Positions 3,997 to 41,940 of a stretch of DNA of 64,000 nucleotides are shown here, piece by piece (within the stretch, counting starts at the first letter, position 1; every line of letters starts with the position of its first letter). Under the pieces are notes generated by a model. It ran no database searches, was not told the origin of the DNA, and was given only the letters and a program-made list of their open reading frames with translations. The translations under genes were made by a program, and so were the position numbers. Source of the stretch: the human T2T-CHM13v2.0 reference genome, Homo sapiens; assembly GCF_009914755.1 (NCBI RefSeq), contig NC_060928.1, one strand, 5' to 3'.

Positions 3997-4904
3997 CTAA
4001 GTGTTTACAATTTTTTTGGTAAATATTTTGCATTTTGTGGGCTATGTTGAGTGTGTTTCACAACTAGTCAGCTCCACCACTGTAGTCCCACAGTATCCGT
4101 AGACAATACTTAAACAAATGAGCATGGCTGTTGTATTGATTTTATTGCTGTATAGTAAGTTACCACAAACTTAGTGGCTTAAAACAACATCCACTTATCT
4201 CACAGTTTCCATGGCCAAGAGTCAGTTTAGCTGAGTCCTCTACTCAGGGTCTCTCAAGTCTGTAGTCAAGGTGTCAGTAAGGGCTGCAGTCTCATCTGAT
4301 GTTTGTGATCCTCTTCCAAACTCCAGGGCTTACTGCAGAATTTATTTCCTTGCAGCTGGTTAACTTGTGATACCTTGCTTCTTTATAACCCTCAGGAGAG
4401 CACACCTCAGCAGGAGGCTCAGATAGGTCCCAGCCGCCCATCTTTTACGGGCTCACCTGATTAGGTCAGGCCCACTCAGAATTATTTTTCTTTGGTTACT
4501 CAAAATCAACTGGTTATGAACTTTAATTCTATCTGCAAAATCTTGTCACCTTTGCTATAAAAAGTAACATAATCACGGGAGTGACACCCCATCATATTCT
4601 CAGTCCCACCCACACTTGAGTAGAGGAGAGATTATACAGAGTGTCTATACCAGGCCATGGGAATATTGGGGCTACCTTAGAATTCTGTCTGCCACATCGG
4701 TGTTCAAATAAAACAACAAATGGATACTGAAATGTGAATAGCAGATAATTTTTCACCTGTCACAAAACTATTTTCTTGTTTTGATTATTTTCCAATTATT
4801 TTAAAATGTTATAACCATTCTTAATTTGCGGGCTTGGGGAAAAAAAACAACAAACCATGCACTAGGCTGTATTTTAATTGTGGGCTGTAGTTTGCCATCC
4901 CCTG
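3997..4904 (+). mobile_element. MER58B hAT-Charlie element split by an MLT1
   Basis: GTAAATATTTT...TAGACAATAC...AAATGAGCATGGCTG, resuming GTGTTCAAATAAAAC...GGGCTGTAGTTTGCCATCCCCTG. Confidence 0.7.
4132..4696 (-). mobile_element. MaLR solo LTR (MLT1E-like)
   Basis: TG...CA termini; TTACCACAAACTTAGTGGCTTAAAACAAC start, CTTAGAATTCTGTCTGCCACA end. Confidence 0.75.
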
Positions 4905-5689
4905 ATATAACCTGAAAAATGGAAGAAGATAGCCCAGATTGCCTGGTAAGAAGTAGGTCCCATAACCAGATGTTAGATCCAGATGACATGGCTCTGCAAC
5001 GTGGGAGCAATGCTGAAGTTTAAGGATAGCTTCTCTTGCAAGTTGCTTCCTGTGACCTGGCAGGATTTAACCTTGAATAGACAGGAGACCAAGGTCACTG
5101 ACCTAAAGGCATCTCCTGTATGAGGACATGGGGACATCTAGGAAGCTGTTCTCACCAAACATACCCCAGCTGGAAAGCCCCCAGATGCTTTCTGAAGTTG
5201 TCATCTTTGTGCTTATTGATGCAAGCTGCAGCTTCTTTGCATTTATTTGTTCCAGTGCTTATTTTCTTCAAGCCTACAAACGAATCCTCTATGGGGCTGT
5301 GCAACTTCAAATAGTCAATCAAAGATGAGAATGTTCTTTAGTTTTACTGGAAATGTAATTCTGCAGAAACAGAATTTAGGAACAACCATTAAGAGCAACC
5401 ATTGCTTTTCATATCACAAGGTACAATCATAATTTCAGATATTTGTATTGTACATCCAGGCTAATTTTCATATTATTTAAATCAAAATTTTCGACAGCAC
5501 AAATAAAAAGATTAACAACAGTGAAAAACATCCTTGTTCCAGGAGCGCAAAAAATCCTTAATACTATTGTGTGTAACATTAGATATTAGAATCATAATAT
5601 ATTTGTCTAGCCACAAATGTATTTGAACAATGTTAAAATGATGCTTGCGGCATGTATTTCTTCCTAAGGCTTCTGTTTAAGAAAGTCTG

Positions 5690-5990
<301 letters not shown>

Positions 5991-6212
5991 TGGTGCTTGT
6001 CTATCTGACAGGCACAATACAAATATTAATTTGTTCAAACCTTATAATAGCCTTTTAAAGACAGCATTATTATATATCATCCTTGATAAGAAAACTGAGA
6101 CGCTGAGCACAGTTGGCCAATATCTCCTGACTAATAACTGACTGAACTGGGATTTGAACCCCACCTATTTCATTCCAGATTCTGTGTTCTCAACCACTAT
6201 CCTCTGCTACCT
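5991..6212 (-). mobile_element. MIR
   Basis: GATAAGAAAACTGAGAC core, and CTGGGATTTGAACCC...CTCAACCACTA. Confidence 0.7.
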
Positions 6213-6335
6213 CTCCAGTATATACTACTAATAAAAATATTTTCTGAATATGCTGACATAGTTTATGATGTACAAATAATAAGATATTTTTAATGAAAAC
6301 ACGGAAATTAAAAATTCTTGAAGGTGACATCCCTC

Positions 6336-7766
6336 CAGGTGACTAACGTGCCCAATTAAATGACCATCTTTCCACTCGTCTAAGCCTCAGCAGGCTTGCG
6401 GATTATCTTGTCAGTGTGTCATCCAATATTTCTTTTTTTTTTTTCATCCAGTATTTCTAATGCTAGCTTTGAGAGTCTTTTCCAATAATGGCAATATCAG
6501 AATCTTGGTAGGGATCAGTTGCATGGTACAGATTTGCACAATTGTATTAATAATTCATCAGATTTTTTCAATTGATGTAGAAGATGTTATTGTAAAATTA
6601 TTCAAAATTTGTTACATTTCTATAATATGAGTGAAGACACTGAAATAATCCTGCGATGTTATCAAAGACAAATTTGGTCCTATTCAAACATAAGATTTCT
6701 GATACAGATGCCTGTTCTCAGAAGAATACTAATAATGTTTCGACCATCACATGCTTAGTTTTTATCAGCTGAAAAAGTTGATTGTCAAGACATTTTCCAA
6801 TGACATTAAATCAAAACAATGCCATTGCAATTTTCCATGACACTTTTTCCAAAATGGAGGGACAGAATATTTCTCCATGTGAATCTTTGCATTTTAATCA
6901 GAATTGAGGAGAAAGATAAAAATGTGAATGGTTTCACTCTAAAAATAAAATAATTTTTTAGAATACAATTGCTAATAATGTTAAATATTCATTGTGATGT
7001 AGATTTAGTGAAACTAATAAAGGGGATGGGAATTGAATTACCTACCTGTAGAGGCATATATTGAAAAGTCTTTAACAGTTTTGCTTTATTTGAAACAAAC
7101 AAGCCAACAAACAAAGATTTGTTAAAAGGCTGTGAAAAGGATGATCTGAAGAAGGCCTGGAATCATTTCTAGGATATTTTATTTTCTGTTGTTATGGAGA
7201 CTTTTAAAAACAAAATTCTTATTATTTAAATATTTGCTTACCAAGTCAAAGCAGAAGAAAACAAAATCCTCTATAAAGATTTTCATGAAAAAATATGTTA
7301 CTATTCCAATATTTCATACCACCTGGTATGACTGATTTATCGGATCATTTTTACTAACAACTTTTGGGGATTACTAAAGAAATTGATACAAAATCTCACT
7401 CAATAATCCAAATGAATTACTCAAACTTTCCAAGACATGCTTGGAAAAAATAAAGAACAAATTCTCAATTTATAAATTGAATTCTACAAATGAACACAAA
7501 AGTGGAACACCCTGCCATCTGCTTCAACAAGAATGATGAAAATGACAAGACAAAAATTGCATCAACCCCTCTGTAATTTTTGGCAGAATTTTGTACTTAT
7601 TCTCATGTACCTATATTCTTGTCAATAAAAGGTGATGGTCGAATGTATAACTCATAAAATTTGATTTTGTAATTTTTGAGGCTTTCTAAAAATAAATTCA
7701 CAAATTAAAAGTATAACTTGTCAGAACATGAAGTCAAATTTGGGCTCTAGAAATACGGTCACCATA
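6336..7766 (+). mobile_element. hAT-Blackjack DNA transposon with degenerate transposase fragments
   Basis: 6499-6660 translates, with a compensated frameshift and stops, as ILVGISCMVQI-LHNCINNSSDF-SIDVEDVIVKLFKICYISII*VKTLK*SCD, a hAT CxxH-region pattern. Right end GAAATACGGTCACCATA (7750-7766) resembles Blackjack/MER81 TIRs; left boundary uncertain. Confidence 0.7.
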
Positions 7767-7921
7767 TGAGTGTTCTGGATCAGAAAGAGCACTCTAAGTC
7801 AGAAAGGGTGAAGCAAAGACAGTCACAGTGGATGTAAATGAAAGAAAAATGAGGTGTGGGTGATTTGAGGATTAATGGGGGCTTTTTCTGTCCAGAAGAA
7901 ATGCATTGCAGACATAAGATG

Positions 7922-8287
7922 ATTCTTGATAAGGTAATAATCGCTTACTATAGTCAAACTCTAAGTACTTCAGCCAGAAACTACTGAGCACCAGGAGAGA
8001 GCTATTAGGCATTGTTAAAGCAATTGATCGCTTCCATCATTATTTGTGTGGCTGGAATTTCACAATCAGAACTTATCATGCTGCATTATGAGGCTTGCTG
8101 AAATTCACAGATTTGTAGGGACAAATTGGCTGGATGTTTACAAAACTGTAAGGCTATCATTTGCGAATTGAACATCGACAGAGAGTAAAAAAACATCGTA
8201 ATGCCCATACATTATCTAGGCACCCTGTGTTGGGATAATGCTTGTGAAGCTGACATTAGGCATGAAGAAAAGAAACAAATAGTCTAA
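7922..8287 (+). pseudogene. Fossil Ty3/Gypsy retrotransposon pol fragment (RNase H domain)
   Basis: Manual translation: DKVIIAYYSQTLSTSARNY(fs)TRRELLGIVKAIDRFHHYLCGWNFTIRTYHAAL*GLLKFTDL*GQIGWMFTKL*GYHLRIEHRQRVKKHRNAHTLSRHP(fs)CWDNACEADIRHEEK. This is collinear with the Ty3/Gypsy RNase H motif series. Confidence 0.85.
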
Positions 8288-8374
8288 CAGATCTGGTAGT
8301 TAGTGTTTTGGAACAACCAAAGGTTTCTGGCTGGGAGAGTGGAAAACACTCTTATTTCCTGAATAGAAAGTTAT

Positions 8375-8470
8375 GAAATGGTTCATTCATCCACAAATAT
8401 TTGTTGAGTGTATGCTATGTGCCAGGCACTGTCGAGGTATGAAGAATATACTAGCAAACAAGACAAATCG
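8375..8470 (-). mobile_element. L2 3' fragment, inserted within or beside the Gypsy fossil
   Basis: TTCATTCATCCACAAATATTTGTTGAGTGTATGCTATGTGCCAGGCACTG...AACAAGACA. Confidence 0.75.
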
Positions 8471-8677
8471 CAGAGCTGAGGTCCAGCAAAGGCCCAGAGA
8501 GAAAAAATATTATTTTGTGACAGTTGGATTGACTATACGTAAAAAACACCCATAAATTTTATGAAGAAGAGATGTCTAATAATATTGCCACTATTAAATA
8601 CCATCATGTGTCATGTAAATATAGTCAAACTTTAAATTTCTTTTGCATGAAAGTGGTATCTAATTGACTGAGTGTGC

Positions 8678-8992
8678 TTTTTTTTTGTTTGTTTGTTTGT
8701 TTGTTTTAAGACGGAGTCTCGCTCTGTCGCCCAGGCTGGAGTGCAGTGGCGCGATCTCGGCTCACTGCAAGCTCTGCCTCCTGGGGTTCATGCCATTCTC
8801 CTGCCTCAGCCTCCCGAGTAGCTGGGATTATAGGCGCCCGCCACCACGCCCGGCTAATTTTTTTGTATTTTTTTAGTAGAGACGGGGTTTCACCGAGTTA
8901 GCCAGGATGGTCTCAATTTCCTGACCTCGTGATCCGCCCGCCTCGGCCTCCCAAAGTGCTGGGATTACAGGCGTGAGCCACCGCGCCCCGCC
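8678..8992 (-). mobile_element. AluY
   Basis: GCAAGCTC, ATGCCATTCTCC and GTTAGCCAGGATGG diagnostics; TSD AGTGTGCTT. Confidence 0.95.
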
Positions 8993-9080
8993 AAGTGTGC
9001 TTCTTTTAAAAAATGTAATATTTAACCTTTGCACATTCCCAGAAGTTTGTTCACCTAGTTTTTCAAGAAAATTTAGGTTC

Positions 9081-9378
9081 GGCTGGGCGCGGTGGCTCAC
9101 GCCAGTAATCCCAGCACTTTGGGAGGTGAAGGCGGGCGGATCACAAGGTCAAGAGATAGAGACCATCCTGGCCAACATGGTGAAACCCCGTCTCTACTAA
9201 AAATACAAAAATTAGCTGGGCGTGGTGGCAGGCCTCTGTAGTCCCAGCTACTCGGGAGGCTGAGGCAGGCGAATCCCTTGAACCAGGAGATGGAGGTTGC
9301 AGGGAGCCGAGATCACGCCACTGCACTCCAGCCTGGCAACAGAGTGAGACTCCATCTCAAAAAAAAAGAAAGAAAAAG
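9081..9378 (+). mobile_element. AluSc
   Basis: GGTCAAGAGAT and CCTGGCAACAG diagnostics; TSD AAGAAAATTTAG. Confidence 0.93.
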
Positions 9379-9566
9379 AAAATTTAGTTCCTTATACATG
9401 GTCAACCAAATTAAAATTGATTTGCAAAAAGGTGGATTTAACATATACAACCTAGAGAAATTCCAACTTTGAGGAAAACACAAGGAAGCTCTATAGTTCT
9501 ACTTGATACCTTCTTATAGTTAAAAGTGTTTCCAAGGAATTCACAATTTTTAAAAATATAGTTCTG

Positions 9567-9758
9567 GTTTTTTTTGTTGTTTGGGGGTTTTTTGTTTTGT
9601 TTTGTTTTGAGACAGGGTCTCACTTTGTCACCCAGGTTGGAGTGTAGTGGCGTGAATATGGCTCATTATAGCCTGACCTTCCGGGCTCAAGAGATCCTCC
9701 CACCTCAGCCTCCCAAGTAGCTGGGACTACAGGCGCACACCACCACATTTGGCTGTAT

Positions 9759-9789
<31 letters not shown>

Positions 9790-9911
9790 TTTTGCAGAGA
9801 CGGGGTTTTGCCATGTTGCCCAGGCTGGTCTTGAACTCCTGAGCTCAACTGATGCACTGACCTTGGCCTCCCAAAGAGCTGGAATTAAAAGCGTGAGCCA
9901 CCACACGAACC
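9567..9911 (-). mobile_element. AluJ with (ATTT)n expanded in the linker
   Basis: GAGACAGGGTCTCAC...GGGCTCAAG and GTTGCCCAGGCTGGTC J-type diagnostics. Confidence 0.9.
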
Positions 9912-10126
9912 TATATTTCTAATGTACTGAACTCTAGATGTTGGCATTATTTCTCAGATGCACCCAGAAAATGTTCTGATAGTCTAAACAGAACTAACCC
10001 TGAAAAGCAAATAAAAATTTCTAAGCACTTCACGCAGTGCTTGGCACATAATAAGTACTTATTAAGTATTTGTAGACATGATCAAGCAAATTGGATATGA
10101 CAAATTGGCATCACAATAACTAGGTA

Positions 10127-10595
10127 GTAGGGGCAGATCCAGTTTTGTGGAACCTGAAGCTTATAAAATTGGAAGCCCCCTTTGAAAAAGGAATACAAAA
10201 TCATCCACATGAAATTAGGCATGAGGCCGGGCCCAATGGCTCATGCCTGTAATCCCAGCACTTTGGGAGTCTGAAGCAGGAGGATTGCTTGAGTCCAGGA
10301 GTCTGTGGCCAGCCTGAGCAACATAGCAAGACCCTGTTCTCTACAAAAATAAAAGTAAAAAAATTAGCCAGGCATGGTGGCACATGCCTCTAGTCCTACC
10401 CACTTGAGAGGCTGAGATGGGAGGATTGCCTGAGCCTAAAAGTTTGAGGCCACAGGGAGCTATGATTGTGCCACTGCACTCCAGCCTAGGTGACATAAGG
10501 ATACCCAGTCCCTAAAAAAATAAATAAGTAAAATAAAATTGAATTGGCATGAAACTGAATATTTAGAATGAGAAAATAAATCACTATAAATTATA
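10127..10595 (+). mobile_element. hAT-Tip100 (Zaphod/MER115-like) 5' fragment interrupted by an AluJ
   Basis: TAGGGGCAGATCCAGTTTTGTGGAACCTGAAGCTTATAAAATTGG, resuming after the Alu with ATTTAGAATGAGAAAATAAATCAC. Confidence 0.6.
10225..10537 (+). mobile_element. AluJ
   Basis: GGAGGATTGCTTGAG and CAACATAGCAAGACCC J-type diagnostics. Confidence 0.9.
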
Positions 10596-11023
10596 TTTTT
10601 TCCAGCTTTATTTGAAGTACAACTGACAAATAAAAATTGAATGAATCTATTTACTGTATAGAACATGATGCGTTGATATATGTATATGCTGTGTGTATGT
10701 CACCCTCTTCTGCCTAAAGCATACCTTCTCCCCCTTCATCTAACCAATCATTCATCTTTCAAAATGCTCCTCATCTATCACCTCTTCAAGGAAGCCTTTC
10801 CTGACACCCCCAAAGTCTGGGCTAGGTCCCACCATGTGTGCTCCCAAGATATCACCTCTACCATGACACTTACCCTACTGCACTGAAACTGGCTGTCTAC
10901 TCATCATCTGAATTCCCAACAGCTGAAGCATCTTAAAGAAAAGACCTGTGTCTTTTATCTTTATATTTCAGCGCCTAGTGCCCAGTAAACATACAATAGC
11001 TATTTGTTGAATGAATAAATGAG
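10596..11023. mobile_element. L1MA 3' fragment (minus, to ~10695) followed by an L2 3' end (plus)
   Basis: CAGCTTTATTTGAAGTACAACTGACAAATAAAAATTG; then AGGAAGCCTTTCCTGACACCC...TATTTGTTGAATGAATAAATGA. Confidence 0.6.
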
Positions 11024-11173
11024 ATTTATTGACTTTTTTTGGCATCAAACGAGTCCAGACCCTAGTGATCTCAAATCCATCATCATACTCTGCACAAACT
11101 GATTGAATATTGATCCCTTGCCATTGCTTCAAGTTAAAAAAAAAAAAAAACCTTTTGAAAATATGATGTGCAG

Positions 11174-11422
11174 GGCTGGGAGCGGTGGCTCCCGCCTGTA
11201 ATCCCAGCACTTTGGGAGGCAGAGGCGGGCGGATTGCCTGAGCTCAGGAGTTCGAGACCAGCCTGGGCAACATGGTCAAACCCTATCTCTACTAAAACAC
11301 AAAAAATTAGCCAGGTGTGGCAGCGTGTGCCTGTAGTCCCAGTTACTTGGGAGGCTGAGGCAGGAGAATTGCTTGAACCCAGGAGGCGGAGGTTGCAGTG
11401 AGCCGAGAAAAAAAAAAGAAAA
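11174..11422 (+). mobile_element. AluS lacking its 3'-terminal ~48 nt
   Basis: Ends GAGCCGAG directly into poly(A); perfect 17-bp TSD GAAAATATGATGTGCAG at 11157-11173 and 11423-11439. Confidence 0.92.
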
Positions 11423-11832
11423 GAAAATATGATGTGCAGCTATAAAACAACAAAACTGATTCTATAAGACATACATAAATACCAGGTTCATTATTTTATG
11501 ATCATCCTTCACAAATAACAATTTGAAATGACTGAGTTGCAGTCAGACTTGAACACATACTTGTTATGAAGAATTATAACTTCATTTCCTACTATAAAAC
11601 TAATTGTTGCCATTGAAAATGTTGGAAAGAAACAGGCTGGTCTAGAGAAGACTTACAAAAAAATATTCGATTTCATTTCTGTTAAAACTTTACCTGATTT
11701 TTTCCTATGTCTTAGTCTCCATGTTCTGTTTTTCAGTTCTGTTTTTCAGTGGACTCCATATCTGTGTCATCCAAGACGCCTACTGTTGACATAAAGCTGC
11801 TGCATACGTAAGACTCTACTCAATTTATTTAA

Positions 11833-12262
<430 letters not shown>

Positions 12263-12753: not shown

Positions 12754-13221
<468 letters not shown>

Positions 13222-38102: not shown

Positions 38103-38362
38103 TTAACTGCTTCCTGCTGAATTGGGGCTTAGTAGGGGTCGTGCAGTTGAGATTTCCTCGGAAGGTGTGCCTTTGATGTCATCAACATCGGAGCATGGGC
38201 TAACAGGCCGGTCTAGGGCTCTGTGGTAGATCTTAGTCATGGACTGCATCTGGGGCTCCATATGAGGAACCATTTGCAGTTTTACAGCTTTGAGTCTGGA
38301 AGAGACAAACAACAGGAGGTTAAAGATACAGGGATTGAAATGTATGGCTTGAAGTGCAGGGG
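38103..38362 (-). pseudogene. HERV-W env remnant (36-nt SU island plus cytoplasmic tail)
   Basis: PLHFKPYISIPV, then FVSSRLKAVKLQMVPHMEPQMQSMTKIY...PNSAGSS, homologous to the syncytin-1/MSRV Env C-terminus. Confidence 0.9.
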
Positions 38363-40507
38363 ATTATTTCTTTGGCACATTTCACAGGCCCTGACTATCT
38401 GCTTGATAGTTTTGAAAAGGCCTGGTCCAGTAAATAATAAATTGGCCATCTGATAGATGCTATCCATGCCCAAGTGAAAGGTTTGGTGAAGGGTTTTAAG
38501 TAATTTCCATTGATTAGCTGCAGGCAAAAGTATTTTCCCTTTTTCGGTGGCTAGCCATCCTGAGGGGAGGAAACTATGTCCTCGTGTCTATTTCTCCTGC
38601 TGAGTACTGGGGCTTGGTTTCCCGGAGGGGATTACCCCATACTAGGGATCCTTCTATAAGCATTTCTAATGGAGGGCCTGCCTTGTGGCTCTTTTGGCTT
38701 CAATATCCACTTGGTGGTTCCTTTCTATTTCCTTTTCCTTTCCTTTCTGATGACCCCAGCAGTGTAAGACTGCCACCTCATTAGGTTTCTGTACAGCCAA
38801 TAATAATCTCCTAATGGCTTCCTGATGTTTGATCGGTGTTCCCTCAGAAGTTAGGAATTTCCTATCTCTCCATATTGCTGTGTGGGCGTGGAGGACTGGG
38901 TAAGCATACTTAGAGTCTGCATATATATTTACCCTTTTTCCTTCTCCTAATTCTAGTGCCTGAGTGAGGGCTATTAGTTCTGCCAGCTGAGCACTAGTTC
39001 CTGGAGTGAAGGAATTACTTTCAAGTATTCCATTATCACTGACCACTGCATACCCCACCTTTCAAAGTCCTTTTTCTACAAAGGAGCTTCCATCAGTATA
39101 CAAGTTGAGGTTGGGATCAGTCAAGGGAACCTCTAGAAGGTCCCCTCGAGCGCCGTAGGTTTGAGCAATCACCTGTTGACAGTTATGTTCTATCTTTTCT
39201 TCATTGTCTGAAAGAAATGTGGCTGGGTTAAGAGTTGAACAAGTGGGCAGTCGCAGCACTGGCCCTTCAAGTAATAGAGCCTGATATTTAAGTAAACGGT
39301 TGTCTGACAGCCACAAGTCTCCTTTAGAAGTGAGTACGCCGTTTACATCATGAGATGTCCACACAGTAAGATCTCTTCCCTGTATTATTTTAACTGCTTC
39401 AGATACTAAGACTGCTACTGCCGCCACTACCTGTAAACAATGAGGTCAACCCTTTGCAACTACATCAATTTCCTTACTCAGGTATGCCACAGGTTGCAAG
39501 CTCATCCCTTGGACCTGTCTAAGGACTCCTAGAGCTATTCCTGTTTTTTCTGTGACATATAAAGAAAAGTCTTCCCCGTTGGCAAGCTTAACACTGGGGC
39601 TTGGGTTAGGGCCTTCTTTAGGGCCTGGAAAGCTGCTTCTGCTTCAGGTGTCCATCTTAATAAATGGGTGTTGGCTTTCTGAGTTTCCTTAATTAGGGTA
39701 TATAATGGCCTGGCTATTTCACCGTACCTGGGAATCCACATTTGGCAGAAACCTGTTATGCCAAGGAACCCTCTTAGTTGCTTTAGGGTTTTGGGATGAG
39801 GATAAGCCAATACAGGCTGGATACATTCCTCACTGAGGGCCCTGGTGCCTTTGGATAATTTTAGCCCTAAGTATTTAACCTGCTGTGAGCAGAGCTGAGC
39901 CTTTGGTTTGGAAACCTTGTAGCCACAGGTGGCGAGGAAATTTAAGAGCACTTGGGTGGCTTGATGGCACAAGGTTTCTGAACGGGCAGCTAAAAATAAA
40001 TCATCCATGTACCAGAGGACAAGAGTGTCCAGGTAGGAGAACTGGCTCGGCTAATGCTTGGCCAACTAGATGGGGGCTATCCCTGAACCCTTGGGGTAAA
40101 ACAGTCAAGCTGAGTTGAGACATTGGGTTCGAAGGATCTCCAAAGGCAAACAAGAATTGAGAGTCAGGATGTACAGGGATGCAGAAAAAGCCATCCTTAA
40201 GGTCCAGGACTGTAAACCACTCTGCTTCTTCTGGTATTTGGGAAAGCAGAGTATAAGGGTTAGGAACAACAGCCTCATTGATAATCCTGAGATCTTGCAC
40301 TAACCTCCACTGTCTGTTGGTTTTCTGTACTCCTAAAATTGGAGTATTGCAGGGGCTACTGCATGGTTTTGCTAGGCTTTGAGCTTTTAGGTCCTTAACA
40401 ATCTTTTGGAGTCCTTGTTGGGCCTCGGGTCTAAGGGGGTACTGCCTTTGGTAGGGAAAGGAGGCATAATCCTTTAGTTTAACTTGAACAGGACAGGCAT
40501 TTGTTGC
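38363..40507 (-). pseudogene. HERV-W pol (RT, RNase H, start of integrase zinc finger), disrupted
   Basis: QDLR, TVLDLKDGFF, LPQGFRDSP, YMDD (40000-40011), LRGFLGITG, YTDGSS, SAQLAELIAL, H...H...CEMC; multiple stops and frameshifts. Confidence 0.93.
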
Positions 40508-40924
40508 TCATCTGTATTGTCCTTCTGTTGTCCAGACTTCAGGATTAATTCCTTCTTCAAGCAGGGGACAACAAACAGGTGTTCCTTCTCCTATGTTCAG
40601 GTGTATAATGGCCCCTGCTTTTGCTAGAATGTCTTTCCCTAACAAAGGAGTGGGGCTTTCAGGCATAATTAGAAAAACATGTGAAAAGAGTAGAGTTCCC
40701 CAGTCACAACTTAGTGGCTGGGAGAAGTATCTAGTGGCTGGCTGTCGTAGAAACCCTCGGATAGTGACAGATCTGGAGGACAGTTGTCCGGGACAGGAGA
40801 GTAAGACTGAGAAGGCCACGCCAGTGTCCAGGAGATAGTTAACCTCCTGACCCTCAATGGTCAAGCATACCCAGGGCTCTGTGAGGGTGATGGCATAGGC
40901 TGGCGCTTGCCCTGGGCACCCTGA
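40508..40924 (-). pseudogene. HERV-W protease
   Basis: LLDTGVAFSVL...PTPLLGKDIL aspartyl-protease motifs. Confidence 0.9.
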
Positions 40925-41940
40925 GTCCTGGGGCTGAATCATCTGGTTAGTGGCTTCTGACTCAGAGGACCTTCATCCCCTGGGGCAGTAGGCCTTCCAG
41001 TGATTCCCTTGACATAAGGAGCATGGACGAGGGGGTGGCTTATTTCTATTTGGACAATCTTTTTTAAAGTGTCCTTGTAGACCACACTGGAAGCAAGTCT
41101 TATTAGGCATTCGATTTGCCCAGCTTTTCCCTTTTCCAGAGTGTCCAAAGTCTGCTTGCCTGAGGGCCATGACTAAAGTGGTGGCCTTTTTTTAAAATCT
41201 CATTTGTCCATTCCACCTGATCCTCCTGATCTCTATCATAAAAAACTGAGGTTGCCAAGTTCAATAGGGTTTCTAAGTTTTGCTCCCGGCCTAACGCAGA
41301 CTTTTGAAGTTTTTTTCTAATGTCTGCAGCTGACTGAGTGGAAAACTTATCCTTTAAGATTAGTTGGCCTTCAATAGAGTCAGGTGACAGAGAGGTATGC
41401 TTTCTCAATGCCTCCCTTAGTCTCTCCAGAAAGGCAGTAGGATTTTCTTCCTTTCCCTGTGTTATAGTGGACATCATTGAATAATTCATAGGCTTCTTCC
41501 TAGTTTTCCTTAGTGCTTCTAGCGCGCAAGTTAGTAAATGTCCGCGGCACCAATCTCCATGTTCTGATTCTGTGTCCCAATGAAGGTCTACGCTGGGAAC
41601 TGCCTGCTGGCCTGTGGGGAATTGTTTTCTTTCTTCTGTTGTCATCCTATCATTGACCTGACTGAGATACCAGAGATCATCAAACTCTCTGGCTGCAGTT
41701 ATGGTGGCACTTCTTTCATTTGGGATTAGTGTCTGATCTAGCAGTAACAGTATATCTCTCCATGTTAGATCAAAGGATTGTCCTAACCCTTGTAAAGCAT
41801 CAATATAGCCATCAGGGCTATCTGATAATTTACCTCGGTTTGCTTCAAGTCTGACAGGGAAAAAAGATACATACACTCTGGGCCGAATTCTCCAGAATAT
41901 ATCTTATGGGCGTTTTTGCCTTGGGGGGAATGTTTCCCAT
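40925..41940 (-). pseudogene. HERV-W gag, matrix deleted, frameshifted
   Basis: MGNIPPKAKTP start at 41940; MHR QGKEENPTAFLERL; CCHC knuckles CFQCGLQGHFKKDC and CSLCQGNHWKAYC. Confidence 0.92.

What the first reader, a model, noticed from the sequence alone, without database searches (positions are those of the whole stretch)
7922..8287. Readable Ty3/Gypsy RNase H fossil invisible to the ORF track
Seen: translating across two frameshifts (near 7987 and 8227) and three stops (8089, 8116, 8149) gives IAYYSQTLSTSARNY/TRRELLGIVKAIDRFHHYLCGWNFTIRTYHAAL*GLLKFTDL*GQIGWMFTKL*GYHLRIEHRQRVKKHRNAHTLSRHP/CWDNAC. Known: this is collinear with the Ty3/Gypsy RNase H consensus (IAY.S..L...ERNY..T.RELLA.V.....F..YL.G..F..RTDH..L.WL.....EGQ.ARW...LQ.Y...I.HR.G..H.NAD.LSR.PC). 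Each stop is one base from the expected R, E or Q codon. Gypsy elements are extinct in mammals and survive as domesticated genes or very old fossils. Inference: this much retained coding signal suggests slow evolution, from cis-regulatory exaptation or a domesticated gene lost later.
Basis: partly seen in the sequence, partly recalled or inferred. Interest (0 to 1): 0.8.

Follow-up and report, generated by a model that had tools for sequence, protein, structure and literature searches.

The report
Dead Ty3/Gypsy RNase H fragment
This is a real but broken 350-base leftover of an ancient Ty3/Gypsy jumping gene in a human gene desert, and nothing tested here suggests it is more than ordinary genomic debris.

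Summary
Window 7934-8287 (+) reads, across two frameshifts and three stops, as the C-terminal two thirds of a Ty3/Gypsy RNase H. The main frame hits Pfam RT_RNaseH at E 2.6e-8, above the cut-off. A profile of 22 related Gypsy pol segments gives 79 bits, against 2.6 bits for the best of 600 shuffled frames. Its best solved-structure match is yeast Ty3.

The nearest intact relatives are 38-56% identical and have the Gypsy domain order RT, RNase H, integrase. Nothing else of the element survives: no RT, integrase or LTRs. No DNA-level paralogue was found in the genome.

- Four orthologous database "proteins" use different reading phases and seem to have been called with TGA read as W.
- The fossil is no better conserved than its flank.
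- A chr15 Gypsy RNase H fossil scores much higher.

Estimated decay is about 10-16%, roughly what old neutral DNA shows. Dfam annotation and phyloP could not be checked.

The parts
7934..7984 (+). First readable piece of the RNase H fossil (VIIAYYSQTLSTSARNY), in the phase of 7853-7987
   Evidence: Lineage profile positions 261-279, i-E 0.003. tblastn 7937-7984 shows 50-69% identity to relatives.
7985..7987 (+). First frameshift: one base missing after the Y codon. TGA in the old phase.
   Evidence: Phase change. The relatives have a Cys column here. P0004 and human share this state; P0003 does not.
7987..8226 (+). Main RNase H piece, with in-frame stops at 8089-8091 (TGA), 8116-8118 (TAG) and 8149-8151 (TAA)
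   Evidence: PF17917 at 34.4 bits, E 2.6e-8. Lineage profile 79.2 bits, positions 277-366. Ty3 structure 4ol8 at E 5.7e-5.
8227..8227 (+). Second frameshift: one extra base
   Evidence: Phase change between 8152-8238 and 8189-8287. The relatives continue ...LSRRPC....
8228..8287 (+). Tail after the RNase H (CWDNACEADIRHEEKKQIV, then TAA). The Cys motif resembles the relatives' PC-x4-C motif. Similarity fades by about 8275.
   Evidence: Comparison by eye with P0009 and P0018 and the alignment row. No Pfam hit on its own.
7584..7933 (.). Upstream flank. It is shared with the orthologous sequences but shows no recognisable Gypsy signal. The N-terminal third of the RNase H and the RT are absent.
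   Evidence: The orthologue ORFs are collinear from 7584. The lineage profile finds nothing upstream, and Pfam finds nothing.

Best explanation
A non-functional, neutrally decaying internal fragment of about 340-350 bp from the pol gene of an ancient Ty3/Gypsy (Metaviridae-type) LTR retrotransposon. It covers the C-terminal two thirds of the RNase H domain and the first residues of the linker toward the integrase.

I infer that the element inserted in an ancestor of human and at least a few other mammals. The rest of it (gag, protease, RT, the N-terminal part of the RNase H, integrase, LTRs) was lost by deletion or overwritten. What remains has picked up two frameshifts, three stops and loss of the TDH aspartate.

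It does nothing. It is readable because RNase H motifs are distinctive and the decay is only about 10-16% at the nucleotide level.

Shown: identity, extent, breakage, lack of paralogues, and lack of a shared reading frame in the orthologues. Inferred: neutrality and age.
For: **Identity**
- PF17917 is above the cut-off. The lineage profile gives 79 bits against 2.6 for shuffles.
- 13 long relatives were Pfam-scanned. RVT_1 is in 12 of 13, Integrase_H2C2 in 11 of 13 and rve in 8 of 13. A separate PF00075 RNase_H or Gag_p30 is in 0 of 13.
- A profile of 20 relatives hits the Ty3 structures 7q5b and 4ol8 at E 6e-32 and 4e-31, with no retroviral RT at E<=0.01. The human piece itself hits 4ol8 at E 5.7e-5.

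**Isolated fragment**
- No other pol domain lies in 4000-12000 in six frames. The profile finds none either.
- Only Alu-type direct repeats flank it. Rfam finds only Alu/SRP matches, at 8706-9360.

**Dead**
- There are stops and frameshifts.
- At the 14 columns invariant in the 20 relatives, I count 11 retained in human from the rows. The TDH Asp is Tyr.

**No coding constraint**
- The database ORFs P0003, P0004, P0006 and P0010 follow the orthologous DNA in different phases. For example, over 7821-7871 P0003 is in phase 2 while P0004 and P0010 are in phase 0.
- They are 4.6-7.6% Trp, and W faces human TGA at 7677, 7767, 7839, 7850, 7866, 7920, 7985 and 8089.

**No extra conservation** (fossil versus flank identity)
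- P0003: 63/82 versus 56/80, p 0.38.
- P0004: 55/70 versus 40/60, p 0.17.
- P0010: 18/27 versus 70/101, p 0.82.

**Not exceptional**
- The chr15 fossil scores 94.4 bits over 99 profile positions. This one scores 34.4 over 57. Intact relatives score about 120-129 over 105.
Against: - The decay estimate is on the low side for a fossil that should be at least 100 My old. By my own count, 27 of 34 columns that are at least 90% conserved are retained. In one search, 42 of 62 columns that are at least 70% conserved are retained. The region holds three stops in about 110 codons.
- In two of three orthologue comparisons the fossil is about 7-12 points more identical than the flank, though not significantly.
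- The species behind the orthologous sequences are unknown, so the distances (about 9-15% at the nucleotide level, inferred from 70-81% amino-acid identity) cannot be calibrated against a neutral rate.
- No DNA-level paralogue was found, so it may not belong to any multi-copy Dfam family.
- Neither Dfam nor phyloP/phastCons could be consulted.
Confidence: 0.8

Rival explanations
1. Exapted non-coding element. The fragment, perhaps with its flank, is kept by selection as a cis-regulatory element of the BEND4-SHISA3 gene desert, which slowed its decay.
For: - Decay is on the low side.
- The fossil is slightly but not significantly more identical to P0003 and P0004 than the flank is.
- According to the hub table, the desert holds several RefSeq enhancers.
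Against: - The hub's enhancer list begins at 13120, and four further enhancers are not itemised. None of the listed ones overlaps 7.6-8.3 kb.
- There is no significant difference from the flank.
- CpG is depleted to 6 observed against 21 expected, as in ordinary methylated DNA.
- A better preserved Gypsy fossil exists elsewhere, so readability needs no special cause.
Confidence: 0.1
2. Remnant of a Gypsy-derived host gene that was domesticated in early mammals and later lost in the human lineage.
For: Database ORFs of 186, 153 and 142 aa exist on orthologous DNA of other species.
Against: - Those ORFs use different phases and leave the Gypsy frame.
- Their W residues face human TGA at 8 sites in all three phases. 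They are best read as ORFs called under a TGA=W code.
- Only part of one domain exists.
- No gene is annotated here (hub table).
- There is no similarity to the chr14 open frame with RT_RNaseH, L030: P0001 has no hit at E<=1e-3.
Confidence: 0.03
3. A neutral fossil that is younger than assumed: a late, single Gypsy insertion, possibly arriving horizontally, after the main mammalian Gypsy extinction.
For: - Decay is low.
- It appears to be single-copy in the genome.
- Identity to extant non-human relatives is 38-56%.
Against: - At columns conserved in the relatives, 9 of 49 changes are shared by human, P0003 and P0004, against 2 that are human-only. Much of the change therefore predates their split.
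- Gypsy activity in early placentals is documented for MamGyp-int and PNMA2 (passages read in bioRxiv 10.1101/2023.02.09.527862), and that alone could explain this age.
Confidence: 0.07

Closest known systems
Mammalian Gypsy fossils of Repbase/Dfam: MamGyp-int and X1_LR to X4_LR internal portions; MamGypLTR1-3, LTR85, LTR88 and LTR104_Mam LTRs
   Same: Both are ancient, inactive Ty3/Gypsy remains in the human genome. [quoted passage not shown] One relative of this fossil, P0068, carries a PNMA-type gag. PNMA2 is said to derive from MamGyp-int.
   Different: Membership could not be tested because no Dfam or Repbase consensus is on hand. No DNA-level paralogue was found in the genome. It may be a singleton or belong to a very low-copy family.
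Ty3 reverse transcriptase/RNase H of yeast (PDB 4ol8, 7q5b)
   Same: Best solved-structure match, both for the human piece (E 5.7e-5) and for the profile of its relatives (E 6e-32). Same RNase H domain placed directly after the RT.
   Different: The human copy is a broken partial domain. The TDH Asp is replaced, and no RT or integrase is attached.
Domesticated Gypsy-derived genes (RTL1, PEG10, PNMA family)
   Same: Same superfamily of origin. A 1377-aa open frame on chr14 with an RT_RNaseH hit is probably RTL1; that name is recalled, not tested.
   Different: No open frame, no annotated gene, and no conserved phase in the orthologues. No detectable similarity to the chr14 locus.
RT connection domain of endogenous retroviruses, e.g. 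the ERV at about 38.4-41.8 kb (-) in this window
   Same: Both hit PF17917.
   Different: The ERV copy scores 23 bits over 98 positions and is followed by a separate PF00075 RNase_H with Gag_p30 upstream. The fossil scores 34 bits over 57 positions, and its relatives lack PF00075.

Membership tests
Ty3/Gypsy pol RNase H domain (Pfam PF17917 RT_RNaseH) | Profile hit above the curated cut-off | tested here: met
   34.4 bits against a cut-off of 24.8, E 2.6e-8.
Ty3/Gypsy pol RNase H domain (Pfam PF17917 RT_RNaseH) | Nearest relatives have the Gypsy order RT, RNase H, Integrase_H2C2, rve, with no second retroviral-type RNase_H (PF00075) | tested here: met
   Of 13 long relatives: RVT_1 in 12, H2C2 in 11, rve in 8, PF00075 in 0, Gag_p30 in 0. 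PDB hits are Ty3, with no retroviral RT.
Ty3/Gypsy pol RNase H domain (Pfam PF17917 RT_RNaseH) | Complete domain with catalytic residues | tested here: not met
   Only profile positions 261-366 of the lineage model, or 46-102 of Pfam, are present. The invariant TDH Asp is Tyr in human. That this Asp is catalytic is recalled, not tested.
Complete LTR retrotransposon | Flanking LTRs and the other pol/gag domains at the locus | tested here: not met
   No direct repeats other than Alus in 5500-10500. No other domain in 4000-12000.
Named Repbase/Dfam family (MamGyp-int, MamGypsy2-I, X1-4_LR) | Nucleotide match to the family consensus, and several genomic copies | not testable with these tools
   No Dfam or Repbase library is on hand. 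Own-genome DNA search finds only the locus itself. Only weak 63-77 nt matches to other loci, E 0.002.
Domesticated Gypsy-derived gene | Open frame conserved across species in one phase | tested here: not met
   Human has 3 stops and 2 frameshifts. The four orthologue ORFs run in different phases and depend on W at TGA sites.
Exapted conserved non-coding element | Conservation above that of neighbouring neutral DNA | tested here: inconclusive
   Fossil versus flank identity to three orthologues gives p 0.38, 0.17 and 0.82. The species are unknown and no phyloP is available.

The most novel reading that the evidence does not exclude
The fragment has decayed less than a Gypsy fossil of at least 100 My should. 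Either it, perhaps with its flank, is under non-coding constraint in the BEND4-SHISA3 desert, or it records a late single Gypsy insertion after the supposed extinction of Gypsy elements in mammals.
Probability: 0.12. Interest if true: 0.5.

Novelty: new member of a known kind. Interest (0 to 1): 0.2.

Why it matters
It matters little. It adds one clean, apparently single-copy example to the short list of readable Gypsy pol fossils in the human genome. With P0012 as query, only 3 places matched genome-wide at E<=0.01, and this one was the best. It may help in dating the end of Gypsy activity in mammals.

One practical by-product: large metagenome-derived protein databases hold spurious "proteins" called on mammalian non-coding DNA under a TGA=W code. 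These can mimic open orthologous ORFs.

Tried and rejected
1. **Extension upstream.** I first thought the element reached about 7660, reading FWGFLKINSQIK as the RT FLG..YYRRFI motif and GDLRINGG as the DAS..G.G motif. The lineage profile found nothing upstream of 7934, so I dropped this.
2. **Second copy or split element.** The RT and H2C2 matches at 38.4-40.4 kb (-) looked like the missing parts of the same element. Pfam shows a gammaretrovirus-like ERV there, with Gag_p30 and its own PF00075 RNase_H. It is unrelated.
3. **Open orthologue as evidence of a gene.** The 186-aa open ORF P0003 looked like evidence for a gene that stayed intact until recently. I rejected this after the phase and W/TGA analysis.
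4. **Own-genome search with the alignment A1.** This query type is not accepted, so I used the single proteins P0018 and P0012.
5. **Literature.** Searches for MamGypsy2 / MamGyp-int and X1_LR to X4_LR gave no locus-level description. The Jurka 2012 paper was seen only in a search listing, with 0 occurrences of "gypsy".

Full report
**1. Observation**

- The phase of 7853-7987 ends ...VIIAYYSQTLSTSARNY, then TGA.
- The phase of 7954-8238 gives STRRELLGIVKAIDRFHHYLCGWNFTIRTYHAAL*GLLKFTDL*GQIGWMFTKL*GYHLRIEHRQRVKKHRNAHTLSRHP. The stops are at 8089 (TGA), 8116 (TAG) and 8149 (TAA).
- The phase of 8189-8287 continues CWDNACEADIRHEEKKQIV.
- No stop-to-stop ORF here exceeds 47 aa.

Read with X at the stops, the main piece hits Pfam PF17917 RT_RNaseH at E 2.6e-8 and 34.4 bits, against a cut-off of 24.8, over profile positions 46-102. 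A profile I built from 22 pol segments of the nearest database relatives gives 79.2 bits (E 7.8e-26) for 7981-8253, plus a small match for 7934-7990. The best of 600 shuffled frames of the same DNA gives 2.6 bits. All 18 related proteins tried by tblastn hit this place at 38-56% identity.

**2. What it is**

A full HMMER search of 1.84 billion representatives with the orthologue-derived query P0003 found 1471 proteins at E<=0.001. These match only the RNase H part.

I scanned 13 long relatives against Pfam:
- RVT_1 is in 12.
- Integrase_H2C2 is in 11.
- rve is in 8.
- gag-type aspartyl protease is in several.
- A PNMA-type gag is in one.
- A separate PF00075 RNase_H or a retroviral Gag_p30 is in none.

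This is the Ty3/Gypsy architecture. A profile of 20 RNase H relatives hits the Ty3 structures 7q5b and 4ol8 (E 6e-32 and 4e-31) and one "Enzymatic polyprotein" (8r0s), with no retroviral RT at E<=0.01. The human piece alone hits 4ol8 at E 5.7e-5.

PF17917 by itself does not separate Gypsy from ERV. It gave 1513 first-look candidates in this genome, and all 150 that were scored are above the cut-off. Those I compared further (L007-L035) look like ERV pol, matching Gypsy RT and integrase at about 20-40% identity. The ERV that lies in this same window scores only 23 bits on PF17917 and is followed by its own PF00075 domain. The Gypsy label therefore rests on the relatives and on the structure matches.

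**3. Extent and surroundings**

- Six-frame Pfam scans of 4000-12000 find no other pol or gag domain.
- The lineage profile spans RT to integrase but matches only positions 261-366.
- The N-terminal third of the RNase H, the RT and the integrase are therefore absent rather than merely faded. Equally decayed neighbours would have been seen.
- There are no LTR-like direct repeats. The only repeats in 5500-10500 are Alus.
- Rfam finds only Alu/SRP matches, at 8706-9360.
- CpG is depleted, 6 observed against 21 expected.

In the whole genome:
- The DNA search finds only the locus itself.
- P0018 finds only this locus, with 13 of 13 candidates scored.
- P0012 finds three places out of 119 candidates: this one (56.4 bits), chr15:69118551 (42.8 bits) and chr8:96871560 (32.8 bits).
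- Direct blastn and tblastx against the other loci give only weak matches. The clearest is chr14 L003, at 38% identity over 45 aa.

So it is a rare kind of fossil in human and appears to be single-copy.

**4. The orthologues and the apparent open frames**

The protein databases hold P0003 (186 aa), P0004 (153 aa), P0006 (66 aa) and P0010 (142 aa). They are collinear with window 7584-8182 at about 65-80% identity. Since the human genome holds no paralogue, I take them to be orthologous loci of other mammals. The species are unknown and I did not seek them.

An open 186-codon frame looked at first like support for a lost gene. It is not, for three reasons.
- **Phases differ.** Over 7676-7744, P0003 is in phase 0 while P0004 and P0010 are in phase 2. 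Over 7821-7871, P0003 is in phase 2 while P0004 and P0010 are in phase 0. Over 7980-8015, P0003 and P0004 are in the Gypsy phase while P0010 is in another. P0003 leaves the Gypsy phase after about 8150.
- **Tryptophan is too common.** The sequences are 4.6-7.6% Trp.
- **W faces TGA.** Their W residues face human TGA at eight sites in all three phases: 7677, 7767, 7839, 7850, 7866, 7920, 7985 and 8089.

The simple reading is that these ORFs were called under a TGA=W code on non-coding DNA. This is an inference, because their DNA is not on hand. No reading frame is conserved.

**5. Decay and constraint**

- Human is on average 43.9% identical to the 20 relatives. The relatives average 57.6% among themselves.
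- By my own count from the rows, human keeps 11 of the 14 columns that are invariant in the relatives. It keeps 16 of the 20 that are nearly invariant.
- At columns that are at least 70% conserved, human keeps 42 of 62.
- The invariant TDH Asp is Tyr in human and P0003 and Asp in P0004.

Translating these retentions into nucleotide change with a simple codon model gives roughly 10-16% decay since inactivation. Three stops in about 110 codons point to the same range. This estimate is my inference and carries wide error. It is at or somewhat below what I recall for repeats about 100 My old in the human lineage (about 15-20%; recalled, not checked). It is not clearly anomalous. It also comes with ascertainment bias, because only a readable fossil would have been flagged.

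Three further points argue against special conservation.
- Polarised on the relatives, 9 of 49 conserved columns are changed in human, P0003 and P0004 alike, against 2 changed in human only. Much of the change is old.
- Identity to the orthologues is not significantly higher in the fossil than in the signal-free flank: 63/82 versus 56/80 (p 0.38), 55/70 versus 40/60 (p 0.17), and 18/27 versus 70/101 (p 0.82).
- A chr15 fossil scores 94.4 bits over 99 Pfam positions despite five stops. That is far better per position than this one. Readable Gypsy RNase H remains therefore need no locus-specific explanation.

**6. Comparison with what is known**

Kojima 2018 (PMC5753468; passages and Table 4 read) lists the human Gypsy remains: MamGyp-int, X1_LR to X4_LR, and several LTR families. 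[quoted passage not shown] A preprint on PNMA2 (passages read) derives that gene from a MamGyp-int gag co-opted in the placental ancestor about 100 My ago. That fits the age suggested here.

Whether this locus is already annotated by RepeatMasker or Dfam could not be checked. The hub's list of masked stretches is no guide, since the obvious ERV at about 38.4-41.8 kb is not in it either. The literature searches found no description of this locus.

**7. Verdict**

It is most likely neutral debris (confidence 0.8). Exaptation, a lost domesticated gene or a late insertion are not excluded, but nothing I could test supports them. Interest is low, and I file it as a new member of a known kind.

Noticed in passing
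window about 38360-41780, minus strand: Gammaretrovirus-like ERV remains with long open stretches: Gag_p30 (53.5 bits), zf-CCHC, RVP, RVT_1, an RT_RNaseH connection domain (23 bits), RNase_H PF00075 (76 bits) and Integrase_H2C2 (40.8 bits). It is absent from the hub's list of longest masked stretches. Observed only.
   Followed up: partly
L006 = G000:C15:69118551-69118841 (-) and L032 = G000:C15:69176254-69176451 (-): Two Gypsy-type RNase H fossils 58 kb apart on chr15. The first scores 94.4 bits on PF17917 with 5 stops. The second scores 41.7 bits with no stop inside a 131-aa open frame. Both are 34-39% identical to the relatives used here.
   Followed up: partly
P0003, P0004, P0006, P0010 (database proteins; source tag lgn shown for P0003 and P0004): These are spurious "proteins" predicted on mammalian non-coding DNA, apparently under a TGA=W code. 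They are 4.6-7.6% Trp, and W faces human TGA at 8 sites. Such entries can mimic conserved ORFs.
   Followed up: yes
L030 = G000:C14:95117339-95117614 (-): An RT_RNaseH hit of 42 bits inside a 1377-aa open frame. It is probably the domesticated gene RTL1; the name is recalled, not tested.
   Followed up: no
L039 = G000:C8:96871560-96871835 (+) and L003 = G000:C14:96994487-96994624 (+): Further weak Gypsy-like RNase H remains. L039 scores 32.8 bits to P0012. L003 is 37-38% identical to the C-terminal part of this fossil.
   Followed up: no
window about 4450-4615, minus strand: Weak Protocadherin PF08374 match, E 8e-4 and 19.9 bits, below the cut-off of 26.3. Probably chance.
   Followed up: no
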